The notes under the pieces: model-generated
Database searches by the model: none
What the model saw: the letters and a program-made list of their open reading frames with translations, nothing else
What the model was told of the DNA's origin: nothing
Position numbers and translations under genes: made by a program
Part shown: in pieces, positions 19,076-22,419 of the stretch
Position numbering within the stretch: the first letter of the stretch is position 1
How the letters are laid out: every line of letters begins with the position of its first letter
DNA from: the human T2T-CHM13v2.0 reference genome, Homo sapiens
DNA length: 64,000 nt
Assembly: GCF_009914755.1 (NCBI RefSeq)
Contig: NC_060930.1
Reading direction: 5' to 3' (one strand)

Positions 19076-19640
19076 TATAGGTTATATCTCCTTAATGTTA
19101 CAAATTGATGAAGATTAAGTAAATAAACCTCAGCAATGACTAATACATATTTTTAAACATCTACTTTTGCTTCTCATAATCACTGAGCATCCATTTGAGC
19201 TTTATTCTTCTTTTCTTCCTTTTTTTGATAATGCTGGCAGACTTGATGAACCAATAGCATCTGACCTTCACAAACTAGGCAGAGTTTCAAAATAAGGTGA
19301 CTCGTTACATTTGTTTGGATTACTTTTTGAATCCCCACATTTTCTCACGTTGGCACAATTTTGCTTCAAGTGCATCATGGAATAGATGAGACAACAGGAA
19401 GCGATAGGCTTTCCCTATTCAGTGAGTCAGGCAGTAACCAAGAGATTAATGTGAATGAATTCAGGGCTTGTGAAGGCATCATTTCTCATCAAATGGAACT
19501 GTACCCTGCTGGACGGAAGTCTGAATATGTGTGATCTAATGCAGAGGTTCCAACTGATGTGACCCACAATGTTGTCACCACCACCTCCCTCCTTGTCCTC
19601 GCTAATGACCTAAGGTGTGTCCACCATGGAAAAATCTTTC

Positions 19641-20589
19641 TGTTACCAGAAACGGATCCCCATCCAGACTCTAAGAGAGGGTTCTTGGACCTTGTGCAAG
19701 AAAGAATTCAGGGCAAGTCCATAGAGCAAAGTGAAAGCAAATTTATTAAGAAAGTAGAGGAATAAAGAATGGGGGCTGGGCGCGGTGGCTCATGCCTGTA
19801 ATCCCAGCACTTGGGAGGACGAGGCAAGCGGATCACGAGGTCAGGAGATCGAGACCATCCTGGCTAACACAGTGAAACCCTGTCTCTACCAAAAATACAA
19901 AAAAGTTAGCCGGGCGTGGTGGCGGGCACCTGTAGTCCCAGCTACTCGGGAGGCTGAGGCAGGAGAATGGCATGAACCCGGGAGGTGGAGGTCGCAGTGA
20001 GCTGAGATCATGCCACTGCACTCTAGCCTCTAGCCTGGGTGACAGAGCGAGACTCCGTCTCAAAAAAAAAAAAAAAAAAAAAAAGAATGGCTATTCCATA
20101 GCTAGAGCAGCCTTGAGAACTGCTGGTTGGCCACTTTTATGGTATTTTCTTGATTATGTGCTAAACAAGAGGTGGATTATTCATGAGTTTTCCAGGAAAG
20201 GGGTGAGCTATTCCCAGAACTGAGGGTTCCCCCCATTTTAGACCATATAGGATGATTCCCTACATTGCCATGGCATTTGTAAACTGTCATGGTGCTGGTG
20301 GAAGTGTCTTTTAGCATGCTAATATATTATAATTAACATCTAATGAGCATTGAGCACAACCAACAGTGACTTTCATCTCCATTTTCATTTTGGTGAGATT
20401 TAGCCAGCTTCTTTACAGCAAACCGCTTTGTCAGCAAGGTCTTTGGGACCTGTATTTTTGGCTGACCTCCTATTTTATCCTGTGACTAAAAATGCCCAGC
20501 CTCCTTGGAAGGCAACCCCATAGGTCTTAGCCTCATTTTACCTAGCCCCTATGCAAGATAGAGTTGCTCTGGTTCCAAAGCCTCTGAAA
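19641..20589 (-). mobile_element. ERV1 solo LTR, MER41B-type, containing a nested AluY
   Basis: Matches the reverse complement of the recalled MER41 consensus (tgttaccagaaa...gagttgctctggttccaaagcctctga). 4-bp TSD tttc at 19637-19640 / 20590-20593. Carries the MER41B-type GAS-bearing segment. Confidence 0.85.
19774..20084 (+). mobile_element. AluY nested in the MER41 LTR
   Basis: Full Alu with Y diagnostics, 23-A tail and TSD aaagaatgg (19764-19772 / 20082-20090). Confidence 0.9.
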
Positions 20590-20806
20590 TTTCATGTCTA
20601 ATTGATGATCCCAAGATATTCAACCGTGTGTTCTGTGTCCTGGATGCTCCCCCTTCACCTTTGGCTGCCAATGCTGAGAGGCAGAAATAGGAGAGAATAG
20701 GCTCTGGGGGTCTGCTGGGCATTCATTCACGGAAACTGGAAGGATGGCTGGTCCTCTAAGGACACCAATTCTGGTCCACAGGCCAGACCTGCTAGCCCTT
20801 ACCTCC

Positions 20807-21373
20807 TGTGATGGTTACTTTCAGGTGTTAACTGACTGGATAGCTGGTTAAGCACCATTTCCGGGTGTGTCTGTGAAAGTATGTTTGTGTGCGAATCCGG
20901 GGACTGACGGGGGAAGATCGGCTCTCATTGTGGGTGGGCATCATCCAATCAGCAGGGTGCCTAGATAGGACAAAAAGGCAGAGGAAAGGTGAATTTGTTT
21001 TTCCAAAAAGGATATTCTGGAACTGGGATGTCTCTTTTCTCCTGTCCTTGGACATCAGAACTCCAGGGTCTTAGGCCTTTGAACTTGGGAACTTGCGCCA
21101 GCAGACCCCTGGGCTCTCAGGCCTTCAGCCTCAGACTGAGAGTCACATCATGAACTTTCCTGGTTGTGAGGCCTTCAGCCTTGGACAGCTATGCTGCTGG
21201 CTCCCCTGGTTCTCCAGCTTGCAGAAAGCCTATCATGGGACTTCTCAGGCTCCGTAATTGCATAAGCCAATCAATTCCCTTAATAAATCCTCTCTCTCGT
21301 ATACCTATCTATACCTCTCTACATATTAATATATCCTATTTGTTCTGTCTCTGGAGAACTCTTAACTAATATA
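20807..21373 (+). mobile_element. ERVL solo LTR, MLT2 (B/C-like)
   Basis: Starts tgtgatggtta and ends ctggagaactcttaactaatata, with typical MLT2 internal motifs. 5-bp TSD cctcc/cttcc (20802-20806 / 21374-21378). Confidence 0.85.
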
Positions 21374-22419
21374 CTTCCATTACGTGGGAATTTCCCAGAT
21401 GCTGAATTGAGGAAAATGACATTTTTTTTAACGTTACTGTTGGTTACCTCCCTATATAGTCAGTTCTTTTGCATCTGTTTGTTTGGATCAGCAGAAGGCA
21501 ACAGTGAGACCCCACCCAATATCTTCTCTTCTCTCTAGAAAGTACTCTGAACATATAATGCTGTGAACATGGCAGGTCTTATCATGTTTTCAAGATGATG
21601 AGATATGTATTGCATATTAAATATTCATACCTGGATATTAAATACTCAGGTTTTTAAAAAATCTTATAACCATTCTAACTGACCATGATCCCAGATGGAA
21701 CCCCTGCCCGCGTCATTGCTTTTGTCTCTGCCACCTGGCTGCCCCTCTAGACAGCTTCCTTTCCTTCCTGGGCTGCTCCCAGGCAACTCAAAAAACTCAA
21801 CTTCCTCCCCCAAAACTCAAATTCTTACTTTTTACGTAGAGCAAATGAAGTCTGTCTCAGCTTTCTTGTGAAGGAAAAGCTGCTTCAGTCAGTTGTGTTT
21901 TTAAATAACACCCCTTCCCACTTTGTGTAACAGAATGTTTTAGAAGCTTATGCTTAAAAATTTTTTTTCAGCCACAAATTGAGGCAGACTCCTTTGATCA
22001 AGGTATTTTGTATTGGCTGAAAGTGTGCTTCTGTGGAGGGCTGGTGCAGGGAGCTGTAATTGAGAGAGTGGGAGGAGTAGCCAGGAAGGAAACTGTTGAT
22101 GAGCATGACTGTATGGGGGGGTCAGCCCAGCTGGAAAAAGGCCAGGACTTATGGAGAAAGGGCATGTGAGGCAGAGAGACGAGGGGGGAGTTTATTGGCT
22201 TCTACTGAGTTACTGAATGTTCTTTCTTCTTAGATCTATAAGAAAAATTAAGTAATAAATCCTAAAAAGGCAAATGACAAAATTTACATTCTTTATTTTT
22301 CAAAAAGAACTTAGAAAACAAGGACAAGAAGGATATTTTTAAAATGTAATATAGACCATATTAAACCAATATTATGGTTGACAGTATTTAAGAGAAAAAG
22401 ACAAATGACTAAAATTGAT

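What the first reader, a model, noticed from the sequence alone, without database searches (positions are those of the whole stretch)
19279..21538. Hidden second RFPL gene: tandem RFPL4B paralog fossil split by two LTRs
Seen: removing the MER41 LTR (TSD tttc) and the MLT2 LTR (TSD cctcc/cttcc) rejoins a sequence encoding RING, linker, PRY and SPRY. From CFKC-I to DVT the relic aligns position for position with RFPL4B (62 positions, apart from a 1-nt frameshift), with V, K, K, L, SL and F at identical offsets. Several RING Cys codons are mutated (CGT, CGT, TAT, AGT). PASPYLHYVGI/DAEL matches PASPRLRRVGIFLDADL exactly across the MLT2 junction. It has the same orientation as RFPL4B and lies 7.4 kb downstream. 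The ORF track exposes only one ~25-codon piece of it. Inference: an ancient tandem duplicate that I do not recall being annotated; an intact orthologue may survive in mammals lacking these insertions.
Basis: partly seen in the sequence, partly recalled or inferred. Interest (0 to 1): 0.85.

Follow-up and report, generated by a model that had tools for sequence, protein, structure and literature searches.

The report
Decayed RFPL4B duplicate split by LTRs
About 7 kb downstream of the human RFPL4B gene lies a long-dead second copy of it, broken by mutations and by two retroviral LTR insertions; it is a real but ordinary gene fossil that the supplied RefSeq gene table does not list.

Summary
I cut out 19641-20593 and 20807-21378. 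Both are dispersed repeats with target-site duplications. The three remaining pieces (19279-19640, 20594-20806, 21379-21538, + strand) then align collinearly with RFPL4B residues 13-257. Identity is 81 of 220 codons. The frameshift-tolerant score is 176, against a maximum of 51 in 200 shuffles and 68 in 124 other window segments.

The relic keeps RFPL4B's layout: RING, a linker of the same length, then PRY/SPRY in one uninterrupted stretch. It scores about twice as high against RFPL4B orthologues (up to 242) as against RFPL4A/1/3 (at most 136) or TRIM proteins (at most 114). It falls inside the RFPL4B clade in two trees.

It is dead. Four of eight zinc-ligand codons are lost, there are 2-3 stops and at least 6 frameshifts, about 13 SPRY codons are missing, and TAG sits where the ATG would be.

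Its age is old but unresolved. It lacks all 8 anthropoid-derived residues tested. It predates an LTR whose copies differ by K about 0.32-0.39.

No intact counterpart appeared among the 120 homologues listed. Tandem duplication is inferred, not shown. Interest is low to moderate.

The parts
11123..11914 (+). Intact RFPL4B coding sequence (263 codons). It is the living paralogue and was used as the query.
   Evidence: Translation. Pfam finds RING, PRY and SPRY. The hub's gene table gives the same coordinates.
19276..19278 (+). TAG codon at the place where the start ATG would be (inferred; the N-terminus is one codon shorter than in RFPL4B).
   Evidence: The frame is read.
19279..19640 (+). Relic piece 1. 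RING finger at about 19294-19430, with 4 of 8 zinc-ligand codons lost. Linker at about 19431-19555. Start of PRY at 19556-19640. Stops at 19383 and, in the one-frame reading (horse guide), 19452. 1-nt deletions near 19362 and 19555.
   Evidence: blastn of 11408-11466 against 19556-19614 gives 78% identity, E 8e-8.
19641..20589 (.). It is flanked by TTTC (19637-19640) and TTTC (20590-20593). It carries a nested Alu.
   Evidence: At least 3230 candidates genome-wide. The 39 other scored copies are 80-83% identical, and most end at query position 497 of 503, which is window 20587. TSDs.
19773..20081 (+). Alu with poly(A) nested inside the first LTR. It is flanked by AAAGAATGG (19764-19772 and 20082-20090).
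   Evidence: family D5, and inverted repeats I1-I5 with the Alu at 18754-19079. One search shows Alu matches to 9144-9401.
20594..20806 (+). Relic piece 2: the end of PRY and the first half of SPRY (RFPL4B residues about 123-205). There is a stop at 20675, several frameshifts and a gap of about 13 codons.
   Evidence: blastn of 11521-11584 against 20633-20695 gives 73% identity, E 5e-4.
20807..21373 (.). It starts TGTGATGG and is flanked by CCTCC (20802-20806) and CTTCC (21374-21378).
   Evidence: At least 2425 candidates genome-wide. The 39 other scored copies are 69-77% identical. Pairwise Jukes-Cantor K is 0.32-0.39 among 5 copies, and the aligned span corresponds to window about 20803-21370. 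TSDs.
21379..21538 (+). Relic piece 3: the C-terminal half of SPRY (RFPL4B residues about 205-257) up to an in-frame TAG at 21536-21538. There is a 1-nt shift at about 21392.

Best explanation
The stretch 19276-21538 (+) is a non-functional, unprocessed-type pseudogene. It is a local, same-orientation duplicate of the single-exon RFPL4B coding unit (RING, short linker, PRY/SPRY).

Shown:
- It is homologous to RFPL4B over almost the full length.
- It belongs to the RFPL4B branch, not to RFPL4A/RFPL1-3 or classical TRIMs.
- It has lost its start codon, half of its zinc ligands and its reading frame.
- It was then split by two LTR insertions, and the first LTR later received an Alu.

Inferred:
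- It arose by tandem duplication.
- It died before the older LTR landed. By copy-to-copy divergence, with a recalled neutral rate of about 2.2e-9 per site per year, that was roughly 75-90 million years ago. This places it at or before early primate or placental diversification.

It does nothing as a protein today. I examined no evidence of reuse.
For: Full-length collinear alignment after excision: score 176 against a null maximum of 51 (200 shuffles) and 68 (124 other segments); 81/220 identical.

Detected without any excision by tblastn (E 0.009) and by an RFPL4B-clade profile (iE 3e-4 and 4e-4). DNA-level matches of the two best-kept segments have E 8e-8 and 5e-4.

Family assignment. Of the 121 proteins scored, the 53 highest (146-242) are all from the RFPL4B group. 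The best RFPL4A/1/3-type scores 136 and the best TRIM 114. The branch separating RFPL4B plus the relic from RFPL4A/1/3 has support 100 in a 54-row IQ-TREE quick tree and in a 102-row FastTree. At 17 columns that tell RFPL4B from RFPL4A/1/3, the relic has the RFPL4B state at 6, the other state at 2 and neither at 9.

Architecture. The RING-to-PRY distance is 197 nt against 198 nt, contiguous as in RFPL4B. In the same genome, RFPL4A-type loci match in two separate blocks.

Insertions. Both are dispersed repeats with TSDs. The reading frame is continuous across the second junction once one TSD copy is removed.

Local duplication is plausible. Sources list two or three RFPL4B proteins on one contig in Dasypus and Lepus. 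In the tree these are lineage-specific.

A window-wide scan finds only RFPL4B and this relic. Five other RING-PRY-SPRY-like loci in the genome that I fetched are not RFPL4B-type.
Against: Pfam reports no family for any of the 5 separate in-frame pieces, even at E up to 10.

A whole-genome six-frame search with aardvark RFPL4B listed 143 matches, and the relic was not among them. Standard methods therefore do not see it, and my strongest score comes from a home-made aligner.

No similarity survives outside the coding part, so the duplication mechanism is not shown.

The position inside the RFPL4B clade is unresolved. The end branch is 1.66 changes per column. AU tests do not reject a position outside all 43 RFPL4B proteins (p 0.606; the held tree is 2.74 lnL units better than the free quick tree). 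They also do not reject a clade with the 6 anthropoids (p 0.761; 7.77 better). The latter could mean a younger, primate-stem duplication, or it could be long-branch attraction.

The relic's translation was built under the guidance of RFPL4B proteins. This leans the alignment towards them.
Confidence: 0.88

Rival explanations
1. Processed pseudogene: a retrocopy of an RFPL4B mRNA that happened to land 7.4 kb from its parent.
For: The RFPL4B coding part has no intron, so absence of introns in the relic cannot exclude it. An A-rich cluster lies at 22240-22415, about 700-860 nt after the relic's stop. That is near where a 794-nt 3' UTR like RFPL4B's would end.
Against: Such A-rich clusters occur 31 times in the 64 kb, about one per 2 kb, so the coincidence is weak. 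No similarity to the spliced 5' UTR exons or the 3' UTR was found, although the test has little power at this divergence. Landing within a few kb of the parent, in the same orientation, is very improbable a priori. Tandem RFPL4B copies are reported by sources in other mammals.
Confidence: 0.05
2. Chance resemblance, or a relic of another TRIM/B30.2 gene rather than of RFPL4B.
For: The individual pieces are weak. Pfam finds nothing in them. Single tblastn HSPs other than the PRY start have E of 1 or more.
Against: The full collinear chain scores about 29 sd above shuffles. The order, strand and spacing of RING, linker, PRY and SPRY match RFPL4B. RFPL4B guides score about twice as high as RFPL4A or TRIM guides. 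Clade support is 100 in two trees.
Confidence: 0.02
3. A comparatively young, primate-stem duplicate that decayed unusually fast, rather than an ancient duplicate from the placental stem.
For: The best-likelihood tree found joins the relic to the anthropoid RFPL4B clade (lnL 7.77 above the free quick tree, AU p 0.761). The free tree puts it in a weakly supported group with primates and Lepus.
Against: At 8 columns where anthropoids share a derived residue, the relic has the derived state at 0, the ancestral state at 5 and neither at 3. It scores higher against aardvark, horse and lemur RFPL4B (230-242) than against human (176). It predates an LTR whose copies differ by K 0.32-0.39. Both the relic and the anthropoid stem are long branches, which invites attraction. 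This rival differs from the best explanation only in date.
Confidence: 0.25

Closest known systems
RFPL4B (ret finger protein-like 4B), window 11123-11914, and its mammalian orthologues
   Same: Same domain order (C3HC4 RING, short linker, PRY, SPRY) and the same RING-to-PRY spacing. Coding in one uninterrupted stretch, on the same strand and at the same locus. It is the best-scoring family.
   Different: No open frame: TAG at the start position, 2-3 stops, at least 6 frameshifts, 4 of 8 zinc ligands lost and about 13 SPRY codons missing. It is interrupted by two LTRs. Only about 37-40% of aligned codons are identical.
RFPL4A / RFPL1-3 genes and their pseudogene-like copies (for example G000 C3:81.42 Mb, C8:68.93 Mb, C12:107.85 Mb)
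   Same: RING-PRY-SPRY proteins without a B-box or coiled coil. Several dead copies lie in the same genome.
   Different: The relic scores 80-136 against this group and 176-242 against the RFPL4B guides. The three other loci show the reverse pattern. The RFPL4A group carries Pfam PF11002, which none of the RFPL4B-group proteins in the listing carry. In this genome RFPL4A loci match in two separate blocks.
Lineage-specific tandem RFPL4B duplicates reported by sources in Otolemur, Dasypus and Lepus
   Same: Extra RFPL4B-type copies. In Dasypus and Lepus two copies lie on one contig.
   Different: Those copies are annotated as intact proteins and cluster by species. None groups with the human relic.

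Membership tests
RFPL4B-type gene (as a pseudogene member) | C3HC4 RING with the family's ligand spacing | tested here: met
   All 8 ligand positions are found at the RFPL4B offsets. Four are still Cys/His codons. Four are single-base derivatives of TGY (CGT, CGT, TAT, AGT).
RFPL4B-type gene (as a pseudogene member) | RING joined to PRY by a short linker in one exon, with no B-box or coiled coil | tested here: met
   197 nt against 198 nt from FCFxCI to DVT. The stretch is contiguous and ungapped in one frame, with 12/65 (human) and 18/65 (horse) identities.
RFPL4B-type gene (as a pseudogene member) | PRY and SPRY (B30.2) segments in order | tested here: met
   PRY start: E 0.009 and profile iE 3e-4. 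SPRY: collinear to residue 257 after excision, with a gap of about 13 codons.
RFPL4B-type gene (as a pseudogene member) | Closer to RFPL4B than to RFPL4A/1-3 or TRIMs | tested here: met
   Guide scores are 146-242 against at most 136 and at most 114. Clade support is 100 in two trees. At diagnostic columns the count is 6 against 2, with 9 neither.
RFPL4B-type gene (as a pseudogene member) | Pfam RING/PRY/SPRY models reach threshold | tested here: not met
   0 of 5 separate in-frame pieces gave any family at E up to 10. The intact RFPL4B control passed. The pieces are 23-50 residues long and decayed. A read-through of the whole relic was not submitted to Pfam.
Functional protein-coding gene | Open reading frame with a start codon | tested here: not met
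   TAG at the ATG position; stops at 19383, 19452 (in the one-frame reading) and 20675; 6-9 frameshifts depending on the guide.
Solo LTRs of endogenous retroviruses (reader: MER41, MLT2) | Dispersed copies with the same ends, short target-site duplication, 5' TG | tested here: met
   At least 3230 and at least 2425 genome-wide candidates. The scored copies end at the proposed boundaries. TSDs are TTTC/TTTC and CCTCC/CTTCC. Both start with TG. The 3' ends read AA and TA rather than CA.
Solo LTRs of endogenous retroviruses (reader: MER41, MLT2) | Assignment to the named Dfam/Repbase families | not testable with these tools
No repeat library is available.
Processed pseudogene (retrocopy) | Poly(A) tail, flanking TSDs, spliced UTR exons | tested here: inconclusive
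   There is an A-rich cluster at 22240-22415, but 31 such clusters occur in the 64 kb. No UTR similarity was found. The test has low power at this divergence.

The most novel reading that the evidence does not exclude
The relic is the human remnant of a second RFPL4B-type gene that already existed before the placental radiation. The AU test does not reject a position outside all 43 living RFPL4B proteins. On this reading the RFPL4B locus is an old birth-and-death array. Further fragments would include a RING-like piece at 8801-8942 and its DNA paralogue at 10717-10785, which were recruited as RFPL4B's non-coding 5' exons. An intact orthologue of the relic might then still exist in some mammal.
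Probability: 0.15. Interest if true: 0.45.

Novelty: new member of a known kind. Interest (0 to 1): 0.3.

Why it matters
The finding adds one unlisted, very old member to the small RFPL family. It shows that the RFPL4B locus duplicated locally in the human lineage, as sources report for other mammals. For annotation, it is an example of a pseudogene that ordinary six-frame searches miss because nested repeats and frameshifts cut it into sub-threshold pieces. For RFPL/TRIM evolution, it offers a dating anchor: the duplication is older than the second LTR. It has no evident functional or medical consequence.

Tried and rejected
- Pfam on 5 separate in-frame pieces gave nothing.
- A DUX4-type motif (TAAYYYAATCA, recalled from memory) was tried because listed papers treat RFPL genes as DUX4 targets. 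With up to 1 mismatch there were 17 matches against 17.8 expected, and no exact site. I dropped it.
- Flank comparison between the RFPL4B locus (8000-13500) and the relic neighbourhood (18207-22794) gave only Alu matches and the two coding segments. The extent and mechanism of the duplication therefore could not be read.
- Looking for a living counterpart: in the 102-row tree no protein groups with the relic. The extra copies in Otolemur, Dasypus and Lepus cluster by species.
- Five other RING-PRY-SPRY-like loci found genome-wide are RFPL4A/1-3-type (3), TRIM-type (1) or ambiguous (1, L007), not RFPL4B-type.
- Dating by tree failed. Three placements are statistically indistinguishable.
- A crude neutral-decay simulation gives only an order of magnitude: 54% nucleotide identity to human RFPL4B at 220 aligned codons.
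- Literature. Searches for 'RFPL4B' plus 'pseudogene' (8 papers; listing only, none about this locus), 'RFPL4BP' (0 papers), 'RFPL4B' plus 'RFPL4A' plus 'evolution' (2 papers; listing only), and RFPL plus pseudogenes plus RFPL4 plus primate (5 papers hold the terms, 3 listed). Of the last, I read passages of PMC12776069, which are not relevant. A search for the RFPL1-3 neocortex evolution paper did not find it in the library.
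Full report
**What was checked.** The window is human chr6, and RFPL4B's coding sequence lies at 11123-11914 (translation).

**Is it there?**

Without any editing, tblastn of RFPL4B against the window gives its best non-self hit at 19556-19636. The match is DVTHNVVTTTSLLVLANDLRCVHHGKI against residues 96-122, 14/27 identical, E 0.009. 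Weaker hits in the same order lie on the same strand.

I built a profile from 48 non-human RFPL4B proteins and ran it on the six-frame translation of the unedited window. It finds 19550-19660 (iE 3e-4), 19356-19553 (iE 4e-4) and 19282-19374 (iE 0.14). Apart from RFPL4B itself, the only other rows are 8807-8890 (iE 1.1) and one on the minus strand (iE 6).

I then joined 19200-19640, 20594-20806 and 21379-21650 in a script. On this sequence tblastn links residues 96-209 and 202-257 with Expect(2) 4e-07.

A frameshift-tolerant protein-to-DNA alignment that I wrote (BLOSUM62, frameshift -10, stop -6) scores 176. It covers residues 13-257 with 81 of 220 aligned codons identical. The controls were:

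| Control | Score |
|---|---|
| Reverse strand | 39 |
| Reversed protein | 41 |
| 200 shuffled proteins | mean 34.9, sd 4.8, max 51 |
| 124 other 926-nt window segments, both strands | mean 34.5, max 68 |

A scan of the whole window in 1-kb tiles with three non-primate guides lights up only RFPL4B and this region. The 230 background tiles have a maximum of 62.

At DNA level, two segments are still recognisable: 11408-11466 against 19556-19614 (78%, E 8e-8) and 11521-11584 against 20633-20695 (73%, E 5e-4).

All were reproduced.
- The RING ligand codons are CGT, TGT, CGT, CAC, TGC, TGC, TAT and AGT. Four of eight are lost, each one base away from TGY.
- The distance from FCFKCI to DVT is 197 nt, against 198 nt in RFPL4B.
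- In one frame without gaps, 12/65 residues equal human RFPL4B (0 of 2000 shuffles reach 12) and 18/65 equal horse.
- PASPYLHYVGI reads in frame across the second junction, against PASPRLRRVGI. After a 1-nt shift, FPDAELRKMTFF follows against FLDADLEEIQFF.
- TAG occupies the start position (19276-19278), and an in-frame TAG ends the relic at 21536-21538.

**The two inserts.**

The stretch 20807-21378 has at least 2425 first-look candidates in the same genome. The 39 other scored copies are 69-77% identical, and the matches end at query positions 564-569 of 572.

The stretch 20091-20593 has at least 3230 candidates. The 39 other scored copies are 80-83% identical, and most end at query position 497, which is window 20587.

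The target-site duplications are TTTC/TTTC and CCTCC/CTTCC. An Alu (19773-20081) with its own duplication, AAAGAATGG, sits inside the first insert.

The names MER41 and MLT2 could not be tested, because no repeat library is at hand.

**Which family?**

I scored the relic against all 121 proteins on hand.
- The 53 highest scores (146-242) all belong to the RFPL4B group. The best are aardvark at 242, horse at 236, and colugo and aye-aye at 231. Human scores 176.
- The best RFPL4A/1/3-type protein scores 136.
- The best TRIM scores 114.

In a 54-row IQ-TREE quick tree and a 102-row FastTree, the branch separating RFPL4B plus the relic from RFPL4A/1/3 has support 100.

The layout is that of RFPL4B: RING, linker and PRY/SPRY are contiguous. 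RFPL4A-type loci in this genome match in two separate blocks.

Pfam found nothing in 5 separate pieces. A whole-genome six-frame search with aardvark RFPL4B listed 143 matches without the relic. The relic is therefore truly hidden from routine methods.

Of five other loci with RING-PRY-SPRY-like matches that I fetched, three are RFPL4A/1-3-type, one is TRIM-type and one is ambiguous. None is RFPL4B-type.

**How old?**

The tree does not resolve this. The relic's end branch is 1.66 changes per column.
- The free tree puts it in a weak group with primates and Lepus.
- A tree with the relic outside all 43 RFPL4B proteins is 2.74 lnL units better (AU p 0.606).
- A tree joining it to the 6 anthropoids is 7.77 units better (AU p 0.761).

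Long-branch attraction is possible in either constrained tree.

Independent hints point to an old origin.
- At 8 columns where anthropoids share a derived residue, the relic has the derived state at 0, the ancestral state at 5 and neither at 3.
- Nucleotide identity to human RFPL4B is 54% over 220 aligned codons.
- The relic must predate the second insert, whose copies differ pairwise by Jukes-Cantor K 0.32-0.39. With a recalled neutral rate of about 2.2e-9 per site per year, that is roughly 75-90 million years. This is a rough figure.

**Mechanism.**

Tandem duplication is inferred from position (7365 nt downstream), orientation, and the tandem RFPL4B copies that sources list in Dasypus and Lepus. 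In the tree those copies are lineage-specific. No flank similarity survives.

The retrocopy rival has one weak point in its favour. An A-rich cluster at 22240-22415 lies near the expected 3' UTR end. However, such clusters occur 31 times in the 64 kb.

**In print?**

The supplied RefSeq table has no entry at this place. My searches found no paper on an RFPL4B pseudogene, and the passages of PMC12776069 that I read were irrelevant. The main RFPL evolution paper was not in the library. GENCODE tracks and supplements were not seen.

**Verdict.** This is a real, very decayed RFPL4B-type duplicate pseudogene. It is a correct and careful first reading, but the object is ordinary in kind.

Noticed in passing
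window 8801-8942 (+), overlapping RFPL4B exon 1 (8744-8821) and the start of intron 1: A RING-like fragment aligns with RFPL4B residues 2-49: 18/47 identical to human, one frameshift, one stop, score 68. None of 300 shuffles of the aardvark guide reaches its score of 62. With the first 52 residues of human RFPL4B as query over 850 tiles, it is the best non-self tile (68; the relic scores 48; background max 46). No PRY/SPRY continuation was found in 8940-11020. The significance is borderline after multiple testing.
   Followed up: partly
window 8802-8870 and 10717-10785 (+): The exon 1/donor region and the exon 2/donor region of RFPL4B's 5' UTR are DNA paralogues (76% over 71 nt, E 4e-6). This is an internal partial duplication. 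The second copy also shows a faint RING-like reading (7/16 identical), which is not significant on its own.
   Followed up: partly
G000 C3:81420717-81421244 (L006), C8:68927782-68928432 (L008), C12:107846920-107847432 (L010): These are contiguous RING-PRY-SPRY-like matches with stops. They score far higher with RFPL4A/RFPL1-3 guides (491-964) than with RFPL4B guides (228-406). They are probably RFPL4A/1-3-type pseudogenes. I did not check their annotation.
   Followed up: partly
table and tree (proteins P0001-P0007): Anthropoid RFPL4B sits on a long stem (0.32 changes per column), and human RFPL4B is only 54-64% identical to non-anthropoid orthologues. This suggests fast evolution of the living gene in anthropoids. 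It was not tested for selection.
   Followed up: no
window 20185-20200, inside the first LTR: The string TTCCAGGAA fits the TTCNNNGAA (GAS/STAT) pattern. The pattern, and reports that MER41 LTRs act as interferon-responsive elements, are recalled from memory. I ran no test.
   Followed up: no
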